This document shows positions 17,824 to 28,886 of a DNA stretch of 64,000 nucleotides, in pieces. The stretch's first letter is position 1. The number at the start of each line of letters is the position of its first letter. A program made the position numbers and the translations under genes. The notes under the pieces are model-generated. The model worked only from the letters and a program-made list of their open reading frames with translations. It had not been told where the DNA came from and did not search any database. Source of the stretch: Curvularia clavata (lineage: Eukaryota); NCBI GenBank assembly GCA_023920165.1, contig CP089279.1:2170001-2234000 (forward strand). Reading direction: 5' to 3'.

Positions 17824-18775
17824 TTACGAGAACATTCCGCCAATGTGATCCACATGTGTCGACTCATCATGAGTGTTTTGAGTTTGTTCCGATTTCAAAG
17901 CTTGCTGCCGTGCCAGGCCCTCTTCTCTCTTTCTTTGTTTCCTGGCGTCTGCATCTTCCCAGTCCGGTGCGCGTGATGTGCCATGTGGCTGTGTTTTCAG
18001 GAGCCCATCACGAAACCGAGCAATTCGGTCAAGGTTGATCTTGAAGCGTTCATCCGCAAGATTGACCAAGGTTCGCAGGTAGTTTGCATCAACCATAGCG
18101 ATGTTGTCTCCATTTTCGTCTTGGTAGCCTATGATAGCATCGAAGGAATAACCGGCTGATCGGACAGCCACTATAGGATTTGATTCTCCTTTGGTCGACC
18201 CCAGGCTCACGGCACCACTCTCACGGAAACCGGCTGTGAGCGCCGCATTGAGAACATGTTGGGCATCGTCTATGGATGCACTCAGAATATGCAAAATCTG
18301 GTGATTGTTAGAACGTGCATAGTGCAGGCACCACTGATCTCACCATGGGCTCAAATTTGAGATGAATATATCTACTGGACACATTGGGTGCCTCATTCTC
18401 GGCTCTAAACCTCTTCAATCCAAAATCGGGCAAAAAGTCATGGACGACGTCCACGTTTTGGACTGGTTCATGAGAAAGGAAGAGCCATGCGCCCCCGCCA
18501 CCTTTCCCACCAGGTCCAGCTCTTGACTCTTCGCCTTCAGCAGCAGGATCTATGGTGGTGCTGTCTGCTTTGCGGCCTTCTAGGAATACACTGATGCGTC
18601 CTGAGCAGCTGCTGGTTGTGACTAAGCCTTCGAGACGGTTGATTTCGTCAATCAATCCTCGAATTGGAGCATCGACAGAGCCTTTTGGCGACAGGTCATG
18701 GTAGTCGACGTCTGGAGTATCTAGCTGTTCGAGGATTCGTTGCTTGCGAGCCTTGAATCGGGTTGTCATGGTCAT
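17824..18775 (-). CDS. TYW3: tRNA wybutosine-synthesising methyltransferase (intron ~18298-18343)
   Basis: DLSPKGSVDAPI, TTSSCSGRISVF, HLKFEPM|ILHI, AGFRESG. Confidence 0.93.
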
Positions 18776-18968: not shown

Positions 18969-21777
18969 ATGCCACGTAAAGCGACTAAAGACACCAACGC
19001 CTCTGCTCCTAGGAGCTCATCTAAGCGCCCTGCGCAGGAAGTCGCGCAGACACAAACAAAGAGAGCAAGGGCGACTCCAAGAAAGTCTTACGTGGAACCG
19101 GACACAGATACGGACGATGTAGAAGATGAGATATTGAGAAAGCCCTCTCCAGGGGAAGAGAAGGACGATGGTGCAGCATCCGACTACGAGGAACCCGGCA
19201 ACAAAGCACCATCGACGGAGTCTGAGCCTGACGAGACCGCTAGTGATGATGATGATGATGATGGTCGCAAGAAACGCAAACCAAGAGGCCGCTCTGCTAA
19301 GAGCCTTCCCATTCATAAGAAAAAGTCTGGCGAGAAAGAGCTATGGAAGCCTGGAGCCAAGCTCGAGCCGGGGATGCAAGTGATCATCAAGAAACCGAAG
19401 GCCCGGGACGCAGGGGACACACCATACCTGGACCACACAATTCATCCGAATACTCTACTCTTTCTGAAAGAATTGGCAGCCAACAATGATCGAAGTTGGC
19501 TCAAGTGTGAGTGTCTTCCCAACATATGTCATGGAGAGAACCGTGGGACCATAGTCGACTAACCATCACGTAGTACACGACCCAGACTTTCGAGTCGCAT
19601 TTCAGGACTTTACGACATTTGCAGAAAAAGTGTCAGAGAAGGTGATTGAAGCAGACGAGACTATCCCGGAGTTACCGGTTAAAGACGTAGTAAGTGCACA
19701 AAATCAGCGTCTTCAATCTGCATATTAACATGCATAGATTTACCGGATATATAGAGGTAAGGACATACTCATATAAAAATTACACGGTGACATTGACACG
19801 CGAAGATATCCGCTTTTCCAAGGACCCGACGCCGTACAAGGTGAGCAGATTTGTATTGCACGAGTGGGATGAGCTTCGTCGGGTTTCCTCGTTTTCGGAT
19901 AAGATACCCCTCGAGTTCTTCTGTGCGCCTTCACGAGAAAAGTGGGATGTACACTGACAGGTGCAGACTTACTTCTCTGCGGCGTGGTCAAGAACTGGAC
20001 GCAAAGGACCCTATGCGCATTATTATGTGCAGGTCCAGCCAAACGGCGGAAGTTTTGTGGGTATGTTGACATTTCTTGTTTCATTGCTCAAGGAAAGTGT
20101 CTAGCTATGAGGTGTCGTGAAACTTGTTCCGGAGCACGGCTTGACCTCGTGGCTATCCTAATCCTTCCCCTGCCCAAGCATGCATATTGTCTGCATGAAT
20201 TCCCGATGGCCATGCGCATATGACCATAATAAACTGGATTTCCATGGGCCGCTTTCTCGCTTGGCCGAGTCTCGCAACCGATACCACATGCTGTAGTGCC
20301 ACAACTGCGTTAGCACCGTCGGACACGGATAAAGCCGGTCGGCGGCTGCCGCACTGAATGCAGCGATATGGACCAGCAACGACAGTCCTGTTGTATCTGT
20401 AGTACGCGGAGGTTTCGCACCGCGCCATTGGGTAGCATTTCCAGTTACACGCGTGCAACATGAAGACAAATGTTGTCGAGCAGTTCGGTCTTCTACGACT
20501 GTCAATGGTGTAACATCTCGGATAGCCTCGAGCGGTTACGGGCCGCACGGTAATGCTGGGTTCGGTGCGCTTCGGCGCGGAAGAAGTCTGCCTGGGTGCT
20601 CATTGTTCCGCATCTCAACCTGGCAGCTATAGTTGATTTCATGACATGGACACGTATGCTAACTTTTCAAGGTGGCGGATATTGGCAGCCAGACGCAGCG
20701 GCTCTTGCTAAGCTTCGACACGATATTGACCGAAAACCACATAAGATCAAATCTGTCCTTAGGAAGGACAGCATCAGAAAAGAGTTTCTGGGAGGCGTGC
20801 CAGACGACGATAGAAAAGCGGTGAAGGCCTTCACGAGCTCATCGATGAACCAGTCGAACGCATTGAAGCGTAACCCCAAAGTAAGTGAGGAACAAATTTA
20901 TGACATTTCGTCCAGAACGGGCAAGGCTTCCAAGGGGGGGATTAAAGTCAGCACCGCGCCTGACGTGTCGGCATTACCATGATTGGCCGACCCTAAGGAC
21001 GGCTAGCAAATACGTTGGCGTTGTCAATAGTTGAGATGGGTGAGATTACTTGGGCATGCGCCATGGCCAGCACAAATAAGCTTTGAGAGATTGTCTCTGA
21101 GCTTCTGCGTTGCAACGCCGTGCCGCAAAGGCGATTAGAGTTTTGAGTCTCCACACAGCCCAAGCAGGCGAGCTGAAGGTTTAGGGTAACAGGTCAGCTA
21201 GTCGGGTGTGCCGCTGTCGACACTTGTTGATGATCAGCGATGAAATGGACGGCGTGCAGTCGGGCTATGCCTGATCAAATTAGCTGACAGGGAGTTCAGG
21301 GATACGATCATGATCACCAAGACATTGAGCTGCTGCGACTCCGCAACTTTACGATTGGACGAAAGATTGAGGACAAGGAGATTGTCGGCTCAGGCGGGTT
21401 GGGTCGAGTCGCGGAGCTCGTGCTCGCAATGGCGCCTTTTGTAAGTTTCTGACTTTGTGTCTGGAGAGTGGACGAGACGAGGCGGTGATTGGGCAGCAGC
21501 TTGAGCAGCTTGTTAGGAACAGCCCTGTAGGGTGCAAGCGACGGTGCTCGCATAGTGCCGGCCAGTCACCCGCGCACCGTAACGAGCAGTCCCTTGACGA
21601 AAGGCATTGGACACGGGAGGTGGCGGCTAACAGTTTGTGCAGATTACGTATCTCAATAGCGTCGTGATGCCCGACGAGGACACGTCAGGCTCGAGCGATG
21701 AGGACAGCGGCGAGGGCGAGGGCGAGAGCGAGGGCGAGGGCGGGGACGACAGCGATGCACAGGATGACGAGGGTTGA
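18969..21777 (+). CDS. DUF2461 (CHP02453) family protein; exons 18969-19506, 19574-19689, 19738-19756, 19806-19840, 19967-20060, 20672-20880, 21300-21440, 21643-21777
   Basis: Spliced translation is continuous and gives FLKELAANNDRSWL, IYRIYRDIRFSKDPTPYK, YYVQVQP...FVGGGYWQP, LKRNPKGYDHDHQDIELLRLRNF; all introns GT-AG with CTAAC/CTGAC-like branch points. Confidence 0.88.
20061..20671 (+). ncRNA. Candidate structured intronic RNA (DUF2461 intron 5, 611 nt)
   Basis: Many by-eye hairpins, including the 12-bp stem 20102-20113/20144-20155 and a C(UUCG)G tetraloop hairpin at 20567-20578; complementarity to intron 6. Confidence 0.5.
20881..21299 (+). ncRNA. Candidate structured intronic RNA (DUF2461 intron 6, 419 nt)
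   Basis: Hairpins gtcggc/gccgac, agctga/tcagct and tgatcag/ctgatca; ~32-bp complementarity to intron 5. Confidence 0.45.
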
Positions 21778-24700
21778 CAGCTTTCAGCAACGCATGTTCA
21801 TGGCGCGGTGCGGTGCGGTGTCTGGAGCCGAAGTCATGCGCATCAAGGGATTGGTGGACGAGGGCAGCAGCAGACAAGAGTAGTGGACCACAAGCGCGAA
21901 GCCCGCCAATAGACGCCTGTGTAACCAAGCGGCAGTGGCGCTGACTGGCTGGGCCAAGCGAAGGCCATGCAGCGAGGCCAAGTCATCGTGCGTTGGCGTG
22001 TGTGCCGTTCTCGCTCGCCCATGGCGTTGCGGGAGACCGCATGAGCGTACGGTCACGTGAAGAGCTAGTGGAGTGGTCGGGTCACAGATCCTAGCACCGC
22101 ACACAAGCGGAAAGGCGCGGCCGCCCACCCCGGTCCCAGTCCTTGTGCTTGTCTTGCCGTCTGCTCCCTCCTAGCGCCGACCGGGGAGAGGGAGGGGGCG
22201 TGGACAGCACAGCACAGCACCGCACCGCACTGCACCGCACACCTCTCGCTCTCGCTCTCGTCTCGATGCATGACTGCATCGCTGCACTCTGGCCCATGAC
22301 ATTGCAGCCCTCGACCGCTGGCGCGCGTGTGCAGCCACTGCTCTGCCCGCCCGTCCGTCCCATGACCTGCCCTCTCCGCACGCTCCTGACCGCTGTGACA
22401 TGCTGTACACGTTGCGTTAGGCCGATACGGCCACGGCCCGGGGCGCACTCGTTGTCCGTCTGGGATGCATGGGTGCCGCTCTAACGCCTTGGATCAAGGC
22501 CAGCTGCATCCCATCACCACGCCGCTATCTGTCTCTCGACCTTGACTGCTGCCGTCAGCGCCATGCATCTGCGACAAGTCGAGCCGATGACGCCGTCCGC
22601 CCACTGCCCATGCTGGCTGAGATTTACGCCATCACCTCAACACGAAGACGCCGGTGGGTCAGAGATGCAGCTTTGCGAGATTCCATCGACCAGTTCCTGT
22701 CGGCGGCTGCCGTAGACTTTCTGAGAGCAGCAACATCGTCATCGCCCGCCTTGTAAAAAAGCGGTGTGTTCGTGGGCCCTGCTTCGCCAGGTAATAATAT
22801 CCAACCCTTTATCCAACACACCGATGGCCTCGCCAGAATTCTTTCTTCCGCGAATTAGCACCCCTCGGGCTGATCAATGGGCCCGCCACGGCGTGCGTCC
22901 GCTTACCCACCCCTTCTGTGGCTCCAAGTGACATCTGCCGGCGTTTTGTCACACGATTGGTTTTTCCAGAAGGCCAAAACGTGTCGCGGCTCGAGGTATG
23001 CCAACAGGTAACACGACTCGTTATCCTTTTCCGTCGTGTCAAGTTGGGCCATCATACGATGTCAATACGGTCTCCAATAAACCAGGCCAGCTAAGCGCAG
23101 AGAACATACCGCTCATCCGCCAGGGCGTATGGCCTCGCATCGTCCTACTGCAAGGACGGGAGTTGTGCGTCCCAGGTAGTAGAAAGCTGTTATCAGGATG
23201 CACGAGGATGCGTGCGCACGGGTTGGCATGGGTACGACTCCCCTCGACGGTGCTTCTGCTTGTTACAGGCGTGCTTGCCGCACTTTATGAAGGTTGCTTG
23301 TTTCGAGCGTCGATGCGCAGCAGCCTGTCCAAGGTAATATGTCCACTTCCCTGCGCCCTGTCAGGCAACAGGAGCGTAGCACAGGACGCCATTCGTCTCG
23401 GAGGCTTGATCATGACTTCCCGCCTGATATGACTGCATCTGGATTTTCGTGCAGGTCACGGCACACGAGACGCGGCACAAGCGATATACCTTCTCCTTTT
23501 ACTGCTGACCGGCCATTCAGGCTTGCAGCCACCTTCTGCAAGCTCCGTCGTATGCCATGCATACGGTGGGCGCAGAGGTTGTGTCACACAAACTTCGTTA
23601 ATCTAAACGTCAACGGGACACATGCGGGAATTCCACACCTCGTCCCGGCCCGCTGATACACAATTGGTACCAAGCGAGTGACTCCGATATGCTGTATCCG
23701 CGCCCTGTTCCGCACCTTTGATTCACCGCCATGCAAGGAAAAAAAAGGGGTGTGGGAAGGATCCGTATGGAATGCGCTTCGCGCCGCAGCGCCTGGTGTG
23801 CGTTGTGCAGACTGGTGCTTGTGCTTCTTTTGCTTGGGGAGAATGGACCGAGCAAGGCGGCTGAAGATCCATCCTGGTTGTTCTACCCCACAAATGCACC
23901 GTTCAGTTGGTGTAACCGTCACCAGCCCAGCGGCAATCGACGGCACTTTTGGATTCGTCGAGCACTCTGACTGACACAGGGCTGCTGACACTAAGTGCCC
24001 ACTGCCATGGTTAATAACACACAGGCTTGCTGGCTGGGTACCTCGGGGCCACTGGCTGCATCTGCGCTCATTAAACGTGCGCTCGTGACTGACTCGGACG
24101 TCGAAATGCGGTGTGGCAGTCAATCAAAGCACAACAATAATCAAAATGGGCTCTGCCGCGACCGGTGAGTAGCGTTCGGAGCCATTTCACCAAATGCGAA
24201 CGCCTCAAGCACGCCATCACATCCTGTGACGCATACAAAGGGCTGCGTGTTCATGTTATTAGTATGGTTATTGTTATTATTTTTTACTACCTGTTTGGCT
24301 CACGCATGGTGCATTGATTGAGGATTTACCCGTCACCCAGCGGATGCAAGGCACACGCACCAGCTGGGACGGCCGGATTGTGCCGTTCTCCAGTTAAAAC
24401 ATTGAATGCGGGGGCTGATGATTGGCAGATAAAGTTCAGTCAAACCCGGGCAGCGGAAAAGATAGATTGGAGTAATGTGGGTCGTAAGCCCCAAAGTTGG
24501 AGACGGGCACAGAAAGAGGGCGAGGGAGCGAGATAAAAATAAGGAATGTTAGGCGGGTGGTGGTGCTGCATGCCGTCCAGCAATGAACAATGGCTGCGAA
24601 GGGACGGGCTGACGGTTCTTTGTTGGAGCTCGTCTGCGTCGTCACGCATTTGTTATGCAGCCAGTCGAAAACAGGCCGGCAAGAAGCCGAGGCTGAAGAT

Positions 24701-25189
24701 GTTCTGGGCGTTTCGCAATTGCCCTTCTTCGAGGTAGGCTACATCCGCTCAAGTCCGAGAAGCTTCGTCACTAGGCGGAACATCCGGCACCGCCACTGGG
24801 TAGAGAAGAAATTTTTTGCCCACCAGGTGAGCAGTTTGCCAGTTAATGTGTTGAAGCGTGCAAGATGGCAGAGTGGCAGGCGTCGAATCAGAAATGCAAG
24901 CAAGTGTTTTGCCATGGGTACCAGTTCGTGCGCCGGTCGCCGGCGCAAGGGATGAACGACGGGCCACATTGTGGATGCTAGGCGAAGGGGCGTGATTCGA
25001 GGACTCGTGTGGGCTGCGTCGGATGCCAGCCGTCTCACACGAAGCAATAGCAGCTGAGGGAAGCAACCATGTCGGTCCTGTCTCCCACGGCGCAAGGCTG
25101 GCCAGAAGCGGCAGTATTATCCCATTTGCCAGGGCAGAAGCGGAGAGGGTTTGTGTGTGTGAGTGTGTGGCAGTGGAGCATGTTGGTGG

Positions 25190-25235
25190 TAGCAGTGGTG
25201 GTGATGATGATGACGATGATGATGATTATGATGAT
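25190..25235. repeat. (GGT/GAT)n trinucleotide microsatellite
   Basis: ggtgatgatgatgacgatgatgatgattatgatgat. Confidence 0.8.
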
Positions 25236-27471
25236 GGGATACTGGCACAGGCGGTGCTCAAGCAAGCAAGCAAGCCAGCTGGAGGAGGCTGCTCTGGCTG
25301 GAGCGAACGGTTCTCCCGGCGCAAGACATATCGGCCCTCCCGCGTGCTACAAGTGCCCCGCGAGCGAGTGCCTGAAGTCGCCGAGTCGCACCGGTGGGCT
25401 TGACTAGCCAGAGCAAGGAAGTCACGTCAGAAAGGACCAAACAGCCCAAGGCCGTTGCCGCAGTGTTCCACACCAACTGTCACGACAGGGATGCTGCCGT
25501 CCTTGACGAGCAAAACGACCGACGCGCCCAAATTGATCAGCCCTATCAGATATCGCAGCAGATGAAGGGCAACAGGCCGCCTCCTGGCCTATGGACCAGC
25601 GGCGCGCGCGCATCCCTGCTCGACGTGGATTAGAGGATGCGGGATGACTCCAGCTGTCGTCACTGCGCGAGGAGAGGGGGGACAGGGTTTGGTTGCGGAT
25701 GAGTCCAAAAAGCACACTACAGCACAGTATACATAGATACGGCCGTGGCATGGCCGTGGCAGCAGCATGGCATCGGCAGTGGGAGCGGTATAGGCTGGGC
25801 AGGGCAGGGCAGCAGGGCGTGGGTGAGCGGCGACGGCGGCGGCGCCAGCAGCGCCAGCAAAGCACGGTGCGACCATGGCGGGCTATAGGGCCTTGTTGGC
25901 ATGTACCGTGGTTCGTAAGCTGTCGCATGTCCCGAGCTATGTCCTTCGCGAAGGAGGCGACACAAGGAAGGACGCAGAGACGGCCCGTCGACGATTCAAG
26001 AGGCCCGAGGTGCTCCCACTTGGTTGCATGCGCCCTCTGCGCGCGCGCGACAGACGCTCGGATGTGCGGGTCAGAGACGGCTTTGGATTGCCACGGCAGA
26101 GCGATGACGCGCAGAGTTGTCGAGGGCGTAGCCGTGGGTCATGGTCGTCGTCGTCGTCGTGGCCGGCAGGCAGGCGGGCGTGTGATTGCAGCAGCCGTGT
26201 ATATAATTAAAGGCTCGTAGATCACAACGCGACGGGAGTCCCCGAGCTCTTGGCGAGTCATACATCTCAAGCAAGCTGCCGGCCCGCAGCATCATCATGC
26301 ACACGGGCCCGCGCTCCTAGGTCATACGCCAACAGACAAGGGGCCTGACGCTGGCCTGCGAGGGCGGCGAGGGCGGGCGAGGGGGGCGGGCTTGTGTGGG
26401 AGTGGGAGTCGAAGTGCCAGTGACAGTGTATGGGTGGGCATGTGTACGTGCGGTGCGAGAGCGAGATGGACAGGCCATGGATCCATGCCATCTGTCCATC
26501 TGTCCATCCATCGATGCATCCATCCATCCATGGGCGTCCCAGGCCAGGCGGGCGTGATACAGGACAGCCGCGGCCACCATCCGCCAGCGCCAGCGCCAGA
26601 GCCAGCGCCAGTCAATCCCCCCCCCTCCCCAGGCCAGCAGTGCCCAGCGCCCAGCGCCCAGCTTGTGGTGCTCTCGCCCGTCTGCTGCGGGCGGATGGTG
26701 TCGCTGCACGTCCAATGCAAGTGAGGATGCCGCATGGCCTTTAGCGCGTTTGGCGGACCGTCGCCGTCGTCGCTGCATGGGGCGGGCAGGGATAAAAACG
26801 CCATGCTAGTAGAAGCGGCGAGAAGGTTGACTTCGGGCACGCGGTGGGTAGTAATAGCGGCCGCTCCAACCTGAATCTCCTTTTTCGCTTCCACGCTCTT
26901 GGGTCCCGTCTCCTCCACGCGCTTCGAGAAGCCCTTCACTCCACAGCCTTTCCTCAACCACCCTCACTCTCACCACGCACGCCCACGACGCTCCAACAAA
27001 GACAGACTGCCTCCGCCCCAGCCCTGTGCGCCTGTCCCTGTGCGTCAGTCCTGTGTGCCCGCCCACACAACCCCCCTCGCCCCATTCCTCCGATCCGCCC
27101 ATCCTCGCCTTGGCTCTGCAATCCGAGCCCAATTTGCTGCCTCTTTCCTCTTACCTGCAGCAACAGCCGACCTTGCGGCCCGCCTGCCTGTATTTTGTGA
27201 CACCTCACCCGCCCCAGAGGATCTCCCGCACCCACCAAACCAACCCCAACGCCCTCCTCTCTTTTCCTCTTTCTCTCTCTCTCTTTCTCTCTATCCTCCC
27301 TCCATCCCACCCGCTCGCTCCTTTGTCGAGGCTGGCCCAGCTGTGTCTTGTTGCACTCGTCAACACCGGCGTGTGACGTGACAGGCTCGCTCCACACGTT
27401 GTGCCCGCCATCGAATTCGACGGCCCCCAACCTCGCACATCTCCACCATCACCCGCTCTCGTCCGCGAGCA

Positions 27472-28886
27472 ATGTTCCCTCACCAGGGCGGCCAAGGCCA
27501 GCTTCCCACCCACTGGCAACCGCCTACCTCGCAGCAGCCTGCAAATGGCTCTTATGCGCCGCCTCCCCATGTAAGTCGCTCATGTGCTGCCGCTCCCTCG
27601 CTCGCTCCCTCGTCCGCTTCCGCGTCCGCTCTCGCTCTATCAGTCAGCGCCGGTAGTGCCCACGTCATCTGACCTGGTCTTGGGTTGACAGCTTACTGAC
27701 ATTTGGCCTCGAATCCACAGATCAACACCACGCTCCCTCCACCACCGCCCCAAGAGCCACGACCCGACATGGCCCAACATCCCCAGTACCAGCACCAGCA
27801 CCCCCAGCCCTATCGTCTGCCCGGCCCCAACGAGTGGACGCGCGCTCCTCCTCCCCCAGACCCATACCGACAGCAGCCTCCTCCTCCACCTCAATACGTC
27901 CAGCAGCACCACCAGCCGCCAGCTCCTCGTCAGCGCACTGCCATTGCCTGCCGCTACTGCCGACGCCGCAAGGTACTTTACTGCCCGCCCACATTGCATC
28001 GAGACACATCATAGCTTACTTTTTTTTTACCCTACAGATTCGATGCTCGGGCTTCGAAGCGACAGAGGACGGCCGCTGCTCCAACTGCATGAGGTTTAAC
28101 CAAGACTGCATCTTCACCCCCGTTTCGGCTCAGACCCAGGCTTTTGTTCCTGCCCATACTGTCTGGCGCGGTGTCGGCCAGCCCCCGCCAATGTATGGTG
28201 CCTACGGGCAGCCTCTTCCTCCTGCGAGCCACGGCGAGCCCTACGGCCAGCCAGCGCGCCCGCAGCAGTATCTGCCCAGCCCAACTGCAGGTCCGTACCC
28301 AGCTCATTCTGAATATGCTCCGCCTGGTGCTTCTCCAGATGAGGCAAGCCGTGACACGCTGGCCGGTAGGAAGAGGCTTCACCCGGAGCCTCACACTCCT
28401 ACCTTGCCTCCGCCAAATCCTGGCGCAGCGTCACAGGCCCCTCATCGGGGCACGGCACCAGATTATGCCTACCCAGAGCCACCAACTCTAACATCGGCTG
28501 CCCCAACAGCAAACCCACCAACCGCCTACTCGTCTGGTCCTCCGCCCGCACAACCCTACTACGCCGCACAACCGCCACGTCAGGGCTCCCCACAGAGCGC
28601 TTATCGCTACGAGCCGAGTCGCAATTCCTCGTCGCCACATTCACAAGCTCCTACAACGCCCGGCGCCCCATCCACGCCCTACTACGGCGCCCCTCCTCAG
28701 TCTAATGGTGTCCTTCAGCCTCCACCGCCCCGCAGCGATGGCAGGACGCCGCCACCACCTCCTCCCACATCGCAAGCTTCGGCAAGACCGAGTATGCGTA
28801 TTAACGACCTAGTAACCGACAATGGCCCAGCCCGCAGCTCGACCGACTCGTCCATGCTCAACATGCTTAACCGCCGGCCCATGTAA
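27472..28886 (+). CDS. Pro/Gln-rich Zn(II)2Cys6 transcription factor (exons 27472-27570, 27721-27972, 28038-28886)
   Basis: IACRYCRRRK|IRCSGFEATEDGRCSNCMRFNQDC binuclear cluster across a GT-AG intron; C-terminal MRINDL motif. Confidence 0.9.

What the first reader, a model, noticed from the sequence alone, without database searches (positions are those of the whole stretch)
19841..21642. DUF2461 gene hosts four enlarged, heavily structured introns: candidate intron-encoded RNA system
Seen: introns 1-3 are ordinary (67, 48 and 49 nt), but introns 4-7 are 126, 611, 419 and 202 nt; the largest three exceed any other intron I modelled in the window. They lack a convincing ORF, microsatellites or TE traits, and they are largely tiled with stems rich in G-U pairs, which points to RNA-level structure on the sense strand. 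Several segments pair between introns. I could not match them to snoRNA, RNase P/MRP, TPP riboswitch or group I/II consensus by eye. Inference: an undescribed structured-RNA system, either a splicing-control (autoregulatory or sensor) element or stable intronic RNAs that work with the DUF2461 protein.
Basis: partly seen in the sequence, partly recalled or inferred. Interest (0 to 1): 0.88.

Follow-up and report, generated by a model that had tools for sequence, protein, structure and literature searches.

The report
Long but unstructured fungal introns
A fungal gene of unknown function really has four oversized introns that are cut out of its RNA, but they fold no better than scrambled sequence, so they are ordinary old introns kept long in this one gene and not a new RNA machine.

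Summary
The gene model and intron sizes (67, 48, 49, 126, 611, 419, 202 nt) are exact. The spliced product equals a deposited 428-aa DUF2461 protein labelled Curvularia clavata, and RNA contigs from two studies join across all seven introns. The "heavily structured" claim fails:
- Whole-intron folding z-scores are -0.57 to +0.47.
- Local windows match the window's background.
- Pairing between introns is at chance.
- Rfam finds nothing.
- The introns are single-copy in the genome, so they are not an active introner or transposon family.

New here: introns at these sites are long in most relatives. Intron 6 is 248-789 nt in 22 of 23 distinct metagenome orthologues. This holds in loci resembling several Pleosporales families and Pezizales, while the neighbouring TYW3 intron stays mostly 45-59 nt. 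Most intron sequence is unalignable. Each long intron keeps one 60-120 nt island shared with the closest relatives, and one island has hairpins with some covariation that the window's own copy has partly lost. Unspliced contigs sit beside spliced ones.

Best reading: plain U2-type introns kept long in this gene, plausibly for slow or incomplete splicing that yields stop-containing transcripts. An earlier scan note on another genome reached the same "long but unstructured" verdict.

The parts
18969..21777 (+). DUF2461 gene, start codon to stop codon. Eight exons: 18969-19506, 19574-19689, 19738-19756, 19806-19840, 19967-20060, 20672-20880, 21300-21440, 21643-21777.
   Evidence: The in-silico spliced product equals P0001. 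Pfam PF09365 matches at E=1.6e-69 over the full profile. RNA contig joints confirm the junctions.
19507..19805 (+). Introns 1-3 (19507-19573, 19690-19737, 19757-19805; 67, 48 and 49 nt), with exon 2 and the 19-nt exon 3 between them.
   Evidence: RNA contigs skip 67 nt, and skip 19690-19803 while keeping 17 letters of exon 3 between the two sides (tables 5 and 5c).
19841..19966 (+). Intron 4, 126 nt, phase 0.
   Evidence: GT..AG boundaries. Joint in X5 and X10. Folding z +0.09.
20061..20671 (+). Intron 5, 611 nt, phase 1. GTATGT donor and CTAAC branch-like site at 20659-20663. If retained, a stop follows after 14 codons.
   Evidence: Joint in X5 and X10, and an unspliced contig 20033-20700 in both. 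Folding z -0.11.
20087..20202 (+). Conserved island of intron 5, about 115 nt. It is shared with Alternaria-like and Pyrenophora-like loci. Relatives have hairpins here that are partly decayed in the window.
   Evidence: nhmmer E=1.1e-22. Covariance model 97 bits. Pair counts.
20881..21299 (+). Intron 6, 419 nt, phase 0. GTAAGT donor and GCTGAC branch-like site at 21283-21288. If retained, a stop follows after 33 codons.
   Evidence: Joint in X10 and unspliced contigs in X5 and X10. Folding z -0.57.
21072..21190 (+). Conserved island of intron 6, about 119 nt. Sequence blocks are conserved but there is no consensus structure.
   Evidence: nhmmer E=2.5e-28. Alignment A4. RNAalifold consensus -3.13 kcal/mol.
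21441..21642 (+). Intron 7, 202 nt, phase 0. GTAAGT donor and GCTAAC branch-like site at 21626-21631. If retained, a stop follows after 3 codons.
   Evidence: Joint in X10 and an unspliced contig 21411-21672. Folding z +0.47.
21505..21566 (+). Conserved island of intron 7, about 60 nt. The window lacks the 15-nt motif that relatives carry just after it.
   Evidence: blastn 68% identity to L001, E=4.4e-4. Alignments A2 and A8.
18298..18343 (-). Control: the single 46-nt intron of the head-to-head neighbour gene TYW3.
   Evidence: Pfam TYW3 E=1.1e-35 for exon 1.

Best explanation
Introns 4-7 are ordinary U2-type spliceosomal introns, not a folded RNA system.

Shown:
- They are removed exactly from the RNA.
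- They fold no better than shuffled sequence.
- They are single-copy in the genome.
- They descend from introns at the same sites in relatives, where they are also long, while the neighbour gene's intron is short.

Inferred:
- Their length is kept in this gene because long introns are spliced slowly or incompletely in a fungus that normally recognises short introns.
- Part of the transcripts therefore keep intron 5, 6 or 7, meet a stop codon within 3-33 codons, and are unproductive. They are probably degraded by nonsense-mediated decay.
- This would give a post-transcriptional throttle on DUF2461 expression.
- The 60-120 nt conserved islands would be the cis-elements that tune this.

I put about 0.85 on the shown core and about 0.4 on the retention mechanism. 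The confidence given for this explanation (0.4) is that of the mechanism.
For: Core:
- Exact GT-AG model equal to P0001, with a complete Pfam domain.
- RNA contigs of two studies (X5, X10) join across introns 1-5. X10 also joins across introns 6 and 7. DNA runs X1 and X3 show none of these joints.
- Whole-intron z-scores are -0.57 to +0.47. 3 of 29 intron windows fall below z=-2, against 11 of 138 background windows. Inter-intron duplex z is -0.48 to +1.60.
- Rfam gives only one chance-level hit, E=0.82, in exon 8. It gives 0 hits at gathering score in 19 orthologous loci.

Inherited and gene-specific length:
- Mapping the exons on 70 metagenome loci recovers 611/419/202 for the window as a control.
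- Intron 6 is 248-789 nt in 22 of 23 distinct introns. Intron 7 exceeds 150 nt in 20 of 22. Intron 5 exceeds 150 nt in 27 of 37.
- In the same loci the TYW3 intron is 45-59 nt in 20 of 35, 73-126 nt in 11, absent in 3, and one estimate (24 nt) is unreliable.
- Loci with long introns include ones nearest to Alternaria, Pyrenophora, Ophiobolus, Plenodomus and the Pezizales fungus Tricharina.

Homology:
- Colinear weak matches link the window's introns to relatives.
- The islands are recovered by nhmmer.

Retention:
- Unspliced contigs cover intron 5 at depth 37.8 and 7.3, against spliced joints at 16.2 and 14.1.
- For intron 6 the figures are 12 against 20.2, and for intron 7, 9.5 against 8.0.
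- X5 shows introns 6 and 7 only in unspliced form.
- Stops follow 14, 33 and 3 codons into introns 5, 6 and 7.

Precedent: the retained intron of fungal srp2 is NMD-targeted, among the longest 1-3% of introns, and not notably conserved in sequence (PMC4379411, passages read).
Against: - The short introns 2-4 also have unspliced contigs at similar relative depth (10.2 against 15.7; 11.7 and 20.5 against 20.7 and 24.7). Retention may therefore not be special to the long introns. It could reflect pre-mRNA, an antisense transcript or DNA carry-over. Contigs give neither strand nor reliable level.
- One X5 contig runs unspliced from 20671 through the gene end and 3.5 kb further, which fits a different transcript or DNA.
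- Against three other strains or species, intron 5 has more variable sites than the exons (16 of 611 against 12 of 1287, p=0.007). Four of these lie in or at the edge of its island.
- Helotiales-like loci manage with 62-, 49- and 53-nt introns at the same sites.
- Many loci belong to one order, so the counts are not independent events.
- No NMD or splicing-kinetics data exist.
Confidence: 0.4

Rival explanations
1. Neutral bloat. The introns grew long in an ancestor by insertions and have simply not shrunk, because the gene is weakly expressed and selection for short introns is weak. The islands are slowly decaying leftovers or incidental elements, and length has no function.
For: - Most intron sequence is unalignable even between genera.
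- There is no excess structure.
- Intron 5 varies more than the exons among close strains.
- Intron 5 length ranges from 49 to 2039 nt between lineages.
- Helotiales-like loci have short introns at all three sites.
- An earlier scan note on another genome read the same kind of introns this way.
Against: - 22 of 23 distinct intron 6 copies and 20 of 22 intron 7 copies stay long in lineages whose sequences no longer align, while the adjacent TYW3 intron stays near the usual size.
- The median intron in one Pleosporales genome is 56 nt (PMC5840194, table passage).
- Islands persist at about exon-like DNA identity.
- Introns 6 and 7 together have fewer variable sites than intron 5 (5 of 621 against 16 of 611, p=0.015).
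Confidence: 0.3
2. DNA-level regulatory elements. The islands are transcription-factor sites or enhancers that belong to the large conserved non-coding landscape downstream of the gene. They keep the introns from shrinking.
For: - A roughly 5.5 kb ORF-poor stretch after the stop codon holds colinear conserved non-coding blocks shared with the same relatives.
- The intron 6 island is conserved in sequence but has no consensus structure.
- A 15-nt motif sits in intron 7 on the + strand in 12 loci, but on the - strand downstream of the gene in 3. This independence from orientation suits a DNA site.
Against: - The islands make up only about 300 of the 1232 nt of introns 5-7, so they do not explain the rest of the length.
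- No binding factor is known.
- The window itself lacks the intron 7 motif.
- No island was found beyond the closest relatives, although the introns stay long far beyond them.
Confidence: 0.12
3. The introns encode or form a functional structured RNA, such as a sensor, an autoregulatory fold bound by the DUF2461 protein, a stable excised intron or a hosted small RNA.
For: - In relatives, the intron 5 island supports a two-helix element plus a small hairpin. Of its cells, 91.3% are paired. Eight pairs changed on both sides, against 3.0 +/- 1.5 in shuffles (1 of 500 shuffles as high). Seven relatives keep 8-9 of 9, 5-6 of 6 and 5-6 of 6 pairs.
- The X5 depth over intron 5 (37.8) exceeds that of exon 1 (22.6).
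Against: - z-scores are near zero globally and locally, and inter-intron pairing is at chance.
- There is no Rfam match in the window or in 19 orthologous loci.
- The supported structure was picked by RNAalifold on the same 9 rows, which represent about 5 lineages. Another alignment of the same sequences gives a different consensus. The alternative pairing is no better than shuffles.
- The window's own copy keeps only 5 of 9 pairs of the main helix.
- The islands of introns 6 and 7 have no supported structure.
- A C-box/D-box-like pair in intron 6 is about 55 nt long and absent from relatives (my reading).
- X10 shows the opposite depth ratio (7.3 against 20.4).
Confidence: 0.07
4. Decayed introner-like elements or transposon insertions. 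The extra length comes from mobile elements that landed in older introns.
For: - Introner-like elements (ILEs) are longer than regular introns and decay in sequence and length (PMC3609843, passages).
- Introns 5-7 have 52-60% GC, unlike the AT-richer short introns.
Against: - There are no other copies in the window or in 32.3 Mb of the source genome's contigs at 80% likeness or more. Only the acidic repeat at 21697-21744 matches elsewhere.
- There is no stable predicted structure.
- There are no terminal inverted repeats or tandem arrays.
- The introns are orthologous and long in many lineages, so they are not recent gains.
- ILEs are described as about twice the usual intron length, not ten times.
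Confidence: 0.06

Closest known systems
Regular U2-type spliceosomal introns of Pezizomycotina at conserved positions
   Same: GT-AG ends, GTAAGT/GTATGT donors, and a CTRAC-like branch site 9-17 nt before the acceptor. Exact removal from RNA. Positions shared with orthologues.
   Different: Four to eleven times the usual length. One Pleosporales genome has a median of 56 nt and a mean of 84 nt (PMC5840194). The introns are persistently long at the same sites in many lineages.
Retained, NMD-targeted long intron of fungal srp2 (SRSF5 orthologue), an example of unproductive splicing (Lareau and Brenner 2015, PMC4379411; passages read)
   Same: A notably long fungal intron at a conserved position whose sequence is poorly conserved. 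Stop codons appear on retention, and unspliced forms are present in RNA data.
   Different: Here three adjacent introns are involved, not one. The host is not a known splicing factor. NMD dependence and any regulation are untested.
Introner-like elements (ILEs) of Dothideomycetes (PMC3609843; abstract and passages read)
   Same: Longer than regular introns, with canonical splice signals, in a Dothideomycete.
   Different: ILEs occur in many near-identical copies, have lower predicted free energy, and mark recent gains. These introns are single-copy, fold like shuffled sequence, and are old and orthologous.
Intron-hosted snoRNAs and intronic riboswitches (Rfam families)
   Same: These would also explain long conserved introns with conserved islands.
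   Different: No covariance-model match in the window (E up to 1) or in 19 orthologous loci at gathering score. No conserved box C/D layout was seen (my reading of A4).
Zipper stems in long yeast introns that shorten the distance from 5' splice site to branch point (recalled from memory: Libri 1995, Rogic 2008; no paper read here)
   Same: In the window, a 13-nt complementarity links position 86-98 of intron 5 to position 460-472 (I5).
   Different: It is not conserved in seven relatives and is not part of the predicted fold. Overall folding is at chance.

Membership tests
U2-type spliceosomal intron | GT-AG (or GC-AG) boundaries whose removal restores the reading frame | tested here: met
   All seven are GT..AG. 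The spliced product equals P0001, 428 aa, and carries the full DUF2461 profile 1-208 in one stretch.
U2-type spliceosomal intron | Exact excision seen in RNA | tested here: met
   RNA contigs skip 67, 126 and 611 nt in X5 and X10, and 419 and 202 nt in X10. Introns 2 and 3 are skipped with exon 3 letters kept between them. DNA runs show no such joint.
U2-type spliceosomal intron | Branch-site motif close to the acceptor | tested here: met
   CTAAC at 20659-20663, CTGAC at 21284-21288 and CTAAC at 21627-21631, read from the sequence. The consensus itself is recalled from memory.
Introner-like elements | Many near-identical copies in unrelated genes of the same genome | tested here: not met
   No copy in the 64-kb window. 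In 32.3 Mb of the source genome's contigs at 80% likeness or more, only 21697-21744 (exon 8 repeat) matches elsewhere.
Introner-like elements | Lower free energy (stable predicted structure) than regular introns | tested here: not met
   z -0.11, -0.57, +0.47 and +0.09 against dinucleotide shuffles. Local windows match the background.
Introner-like elements | Recent gain, absent from orthologues | tested here: not met
   Introns at the same codon positions in nearly all loci where the flanking exons were found. Weak colinear homology to relatives.
Known structured RNA families (snoRNA, riboswitch, RNase P/MRP, group I/II, others in Rfam 15) | Match to the family's covariance model | tested here: not met
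   Window 19400-22000 at E up to 1 gives only sR28, 15 bits against a gathering score of 39, in exon 8. Nineteen orthologous loci at gathering score give 0 matches.
Conserved structured cis-regulatory RNA (new) | Folding energy beyond shuffled sequence | tested here: not met
Conserved structured cis-regulatory RNA (new) | Compensatory base changes across orthologues | tested here: inconclusive
   Intron 5 island: 8 pairs changed on both sides, against 3.0 +/- 1.5 in shuffles. However, the structure was chosen on the same 9 rows, a second alignment gives another consensus, the alternative fold is not supported, and the window keeps 5 of 9 pairs of helix 1. The islands of introns 6 and 7 have no support.
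Unproductive splicing by intron retention (works-like comparison) | Intron-retaining transcripts present, with premature stop codons | tested here: met
   Unspliced contigs over introns 5, 6 and 7 in RNA runs of two studies. Stops after 14, 33 and 3 codons. Caveats: contigs give no strand, and the short introns also have unspliced contigs.
Unproductive splicing by intron retention (works-like comparison) | Retained form stabilised when NMD is disabled; retention responds to a signal or to the protein's level | not testable with these tools
   Needs an NMD mutant or raw stranded reads under different conditions.

The most novel reading that the evidence does not exclude
The DUF2461 gene of filamentous ascomycetes has kept three or four oversized introns at fixed sites since before Dothideomycetes and Pezizomycetes split, while their sequence turned over almost completely. 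Length itself, plus small lineage-specific islands, would be selected as a splicing-delay or intron-retention switch that sets how much productive mRNA is made. The intron 5 hairpin element of Pleosporaceae and the widely conserved 15-nt motif of intron 7 would belong to this switch. That would be a multi-intron, length-encoded regulatory device in a fungal gene that is not a splicing factor.
Probability: 0.2. Interest if true: 0.55.

Novelty: new member of a known kind. Interest (0 to 1): 0.3.

Why it matters
As filed, the finding promised a new class of intron-encoded structured RNA, and that does not hold up. What remains is smaller but real. Most introns in these fungi are about 50-60 nt, yet one gene holds on to several introns of 200-2000 nt at the same sites in distant lineages, next to a neighbour gene whose intron stays short.

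If the length is selected, this gene would be a clean natural case for asking how intron length controls splicing efficiency and expression in organisms that use intron definition. It would also point to a first handle on the biology of the uncharacterised fungal DUF2461 protein.

Practically, these introns break public gene models of the orthologues. Some models are truncated or read through into an intron, which is worth knowing for annotation.

Tried and rejected
- No whole genome is held for this window. I tested copy number with the source genome's Logan contigs instead.
- My first Rfam scan of the loci was over the size limit. I repeated it with 19 loci.
- A full-window z-score scan timed out. 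I replaced it with 29 intron windows and 69 random background windows, both strands, 40 shuffles each.
- blastn at E<=1e-3 found no match between the window's introns and any orthologous intron. Only a more permissive search did.
- tblastx hits between introns fall in several frames on both strands at 30-50% identity, so I read them as nucleotide similarity and not coding.
- Six stop-free stretches inside the introns, including a 148-aa antisense one in intron 5, have no Pfam family.
- A search for 8-mers shared by all long intron 5 or intron 6 copies found nothing above shuffles. Only the intron 7 motif stands out.
- The covariance model of the intron 5 island finds only its own eight members in 324,420 bases.
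- The WIN-only complementarity 20146-20158 / 20520-20532 is not conserved.
- A TGATGA...CTGA pair near the end of intron 6 is too short for a box C/D RNA and is absent from relatives (my reading).
- The ESM Atlas look-ups of two exon-6 peptides, meant to place mid-distance loci taxonomically, gave only low-recognition bacterial clusters and were useless. Those loci remain unplaced.
- PDB sequence search of P0001 gave nothing below E=0.17.
- A literature search for 'DUF2461' returned 4 papers, judged from the listing only. All concern bacterial or phage contexts. I found no paper on this gene's introns.
- The downstream ORF at 27657-28886 looked to me like part of a Zn2Cys6 factor, but Pfam finds no family, so I do not name it.
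- X5 has no spliced joint over introns 6 and 7. Contigs drop rare forms, so I do not read this as absence of splicing.
Full report
**1. What is there**

The region holds a + strand gene whose product is a DUF2461 protein.
- Splicing the sequence in silico at seven GT-AG introns gives a 428-aa protein. The introns are 19507-19573, 19690-19737, 19757-19805, 19841-19966, 20061-20671, 20881-21299 and 21441-21642.
- A search with exon 6 alone returned a deposited protein, P0001. A source names it a hypothetical protein of Curvularia clavata, with 100% identity. My script showed the whole spliced product to be identical to it.
- Pfam places one unbroken DUF2461 domain over residues 161-387, covering profile positions 1-208 of 208 (E=1.6e-69).
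- An alignment of 16 Pleosporales orthologues runs without gaps across every exon junction, so no coding piece is hidden in the long introns.

**2. Splicing is real**

Logan contigs of two runs from two studies (X5, X10) are labelled only as 'RNA?'. They nevertheless carry exon-exon joints that the two DNA runs (X1, X3) lack.
- They skip exactly 67 nt.
- They skip 19690-19803 while keeping 17 letters of the 19-nt exon 3 between the two sides.
- They skip 126 nt and 611 nt in both runs, and 419 and 202 nt in X10.

The same runs also hold unspliced contigs, listed here with depth against the spliced joint:

| Intron | Unspliced contig | Unspliced depth | Spliced joint depth |
|---|---|---|---|
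| 5 | 20033-20700 | 37.8 (X5), 7.3 (X10) | 16.2, 14.1 |
| 6 | 20852-21328 | 12 (X10) | 20.2 |
| 7 | 21411-21672 | 9.5 (X10) | 8.0 |

- A 4855-nt X5 contig runs unspliced from 20671 through the gene end and about 3.5 kb beyond.
- The short introns 2-4 also have unspliced contigs (10.2 against 15.7; 11.7 and 20.5 against 20.7 and 24.7).
- Contigs give no strand and only a rough level, so this shows presence of unspliced forms and nothing more.

**3. The structure claim fails**

- Minimum-free-energy z-scores against dinucleotide-preserving shuffles are:
  - intron 5: -0.11 (9 of 20 shuffles fold as well)
  - intron 6: -0.57 (27 of 100)
  - intron 7: +0.47 (141 of 200)
  - intron 4: +0.09 (104 of 200)
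- In 120-nt windows, 3 of 29 sense-strand intron windows and 0 of 29 antisense windows fall below z=-2. Random windows elsewhere in the 64 kb give 5 of 69 and 6 of 69.
- The best duplexes between pairs of introns have z from -0.48 to +1.60 (60 shuffles each).
- Rfam at E up to 1 gives one chance-level hit (sR28, 15 bits against a gathering score of 39), which lies in exon 8.
- The region has no tRNA. The only tandem repeat in the introns is a two-copy 9-mer. Direct and inverted repeats are only short ones.
- The stop-free stretches in the introns have no Pfam family.
- Read-through from the upstream exon meets a stop after 14, 33 and 3 codons in introns 5, 6 and 7.

**4. Not a repeat family**

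- The introns match nothing else in the window.
- I laid the source genome's own contigs (32.3 Mb) on the gene at 80% likeness. Only the acidic GGCGAG repeat of exon 8 (21697-21744) matched other contigs.
- Introner-like elements are defined by many near-identical copies, greater length and lower predicted free energy, and they mark recent gains (PMC3609843, abstract and passages). Only the length criterion is met here.

**5. What the relatives show**

One scan of metagenome contigs with the orthologue alignment returned 70 loci. I mapped the exon peptides of P0001 on them and chose splice sites that restore the junction peptide. The window itself, run as a control, gave back 611, 419 and 202 nt. 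I then merged near-identical loci (95% clusters) and dropped low-scoring junctions.

| Intron | Distinct copies | Long copies | Median | Range |
|---|---|---|---|---|
| 6 | 23 | 22 at 248-789 nt | 534 | one copy is 49 nt |
| 7 | 22 | 20 over 150 nt | 252.5 | 53-376 |
| 5 | 37 | 27 over 150 nt | 564 | 49-2039 |

- The head-to-head neighbour TYW3 (Pfam E=1.1e-35) is present in 35 loci. Its single intron is 45-59 nt in 20 of them, 73-126 nt in 11 and absent in 3, and one estimate (24 nt) is unreliable. In the window it is 46 nt. The long-intron habit therefore belongs to this gene and not to these genomes.
- For scale, one Pleosporales genome paper gives a mean intron length of 84 nt and a median of 56 nt (PMC5840194, table passage).
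- By nearest named protein, loci with long introns resemble Alternaria, Pyrenophora, Ophiobolus, Setomelanomma, Ampelomyces and Plenodomus. A second group resembles the Pezizales fungus Tricharina, with exon 6 at 84% identity.
- The only loci with short introns at all three sites (62, 49 and 53 nt) resemble Helotiales, with 88% identity to a Hyaloscypha protein.
- Many loci at 44-58% identity could not be placed. Many of the rest belong to one order, so these counts are not independent events.

**6. Sequence conservation**

- At E<=1e-3 the window's introns match no orthologous intron. A permissive blastn finds colinear matches:
  - intron 5 positions 42-248 to L001 (60%, E=1.4e-9)
  - intron 5 positions 1-203 to L026 (60%, E=2.8e-8)
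  - intron 6 positions 196-318 to L026 (65%, E=2.6e-6)
  - intron 7 positions 65-126 to L001 (68%, E=4.4e-4)
- Profiles of these islands find them only in the closest group. The intron 5 island is in 12 of 71 sources and the intron 6 island in 7 of 71.
- Intron 6 island (21072-21190): conserved sequence blocks but no consensus fold (-3.13 kcal/mol).
- Intron 7 island: a weak fold with an unfavourable covariation term.
- Intron 5 island (20087-20202): the one place with a hint of RNA structure.
  - For the RNAalifold consensus of nine rows, 91.3% of cells pair. Eight pairs changed on both sides, against 3.0 +/- 1.5 in shuffles (1 of 500 as high).
  - Seven relatives keep 8-9 of 9, 5-6 of 6 and 5-6 of 6 pairs in the three helices.
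- Cautions on the intron 5 island:
  - The structure was chosen on the same alignment, and the rows represent about five lineages.
  - A realignment without the misfit row L048 yields a different consensus.
  - The alternative long hairpin that the window's own sequence forms is no better than shuffles across the set.
  - The window keeps only 5 of 9 pairs of the main helix.
  - A covariance model of the island finds only its eight members in 324,420 bases.
- Among three other strains or species laid on the gene, variable sites number 16 of 611 in intron 5, 5 of 621 in introns 6 and 7 together, and 12 of 1287 in the exons. Intron 5 against exons gives p=0.007, and introns 6+7 against intron 5 gives p=0.015.

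**7. How it most likely works**

*Shown:* these are plain U2-type introns, spliced out, unstructured, single-copy and inherited. They are long in this gene specifically.

*Inferred:* the length is maintained because it makes splicing of the 3' half slow or incomplete. This produces stop-containing transcripts that do not give protein.
- The nearest precedent is the retained intron of fungal srp2. It is NMD-targeted, lies among the longest 1-3% of introns in Aspergillus and Neurospora, and is not notably conserved in sequence (PMC4379411, passages).
- I give this mechanism about 0.4.
- Neutral persistence gets about 0.3. It is favoured by the fast sequence turnover, by the Helotiales-like loci that do without long introns, and by unspliced contigs over the short introns too.

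**8. Known or new**

- I found no paper on fungal DUF2461 or its introns (searches; listings and the passages named above).
My calls confirm that verdict independently for this window.
- My calls add four things: the short neighbour-gene intron as a control, the breadth of relatives with long introns, the conserved islands, and the RNA joints.
- The kind of object, a long and possibly retained spliceosomal intron, is known. This is a new member of that kind, of modest interest.

Noticed in passing
L001:3404-3418, L007:3490-3504, L012:5148-5162, L022:7271-7285, L036:7108-7122, L056:8085-8099 and others. The motif is absent from the window near 21553.: A 15-nt motif, TGBGYTGGCRBTGCR, occurs exactly once per locus in 15 of 70 loci. 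In 12 it lies in intron 7 on the + strand. In 3 (L016, L024, L025) it lies on the - strand about 270 nt downstream of exon 8. The flanks are not conserved between distant loci. The window has a 19-nt gap where close relatives carry it, and its 10 matches with up to 2 mismatches are at chance level.
   Followed up: partly
window 21778-27400, especially 21889-21958, 22386-22474, 22800-22990, 23357-23662, 23874-23925, 24072-24145 and 24636-24798: A roughly 5.5 kb stretch after the DUF2461 stop codon is ORF-poor and 63-67% GC. It carries colinear blocks conserved with Alternaria-like and Pyrenophora-like loci, up to about 80% by blastn. The blocks score alike in all six frames, so they are non-coding. 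RNA contigs extend into it to about 23389 (X10) and about 25526 (X5). It could be a long 3' UTR, a non-coding RNA or a large promoter region.
   Followed up: partly
window 17827-18775 (- strand) next to 18969 (+ strand): TYW3 and DUF2461 sit head to head, with about 190 nt between their start codons. This arrangement recurs in 35 of 70 loci, including the Pezizales-like ones, so the pairing is old.
   Followed up: partly
P0036, P0022, P0003, P0013, P0019 (public orthologue models): Deposited gene models of relatives break at these introns. The Decorospora model reads 72 aa into intron 5. The Exserohilum model reads into intron 6 and stops. Several Bipolaris and Alternaria models are only 136-255 aa long.
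   Followed up: no
window 19738-19756 and 19806-19840: Exon 3 is a 19-nt micro-exon and exon 4 is 35 nt. RNA contigs carry the exon 3 letters between the joints of introns 2 and 3 (table 5c).
   Followed up: yes
window 21697-21744 and 19235-19273: The acidic GGCGAG repeat of exon 8 matches several other contigs of the genome. Reads seem cut at the GAT repeat of exon 1. Both are simple coding repeats.
   Followed up: no
window 27657-28886 (+): A 409-codon proline-rich open frame carries a cysteine pattern that reminded me of half a Zn2Cys6 cluster.
   Followed up: partly
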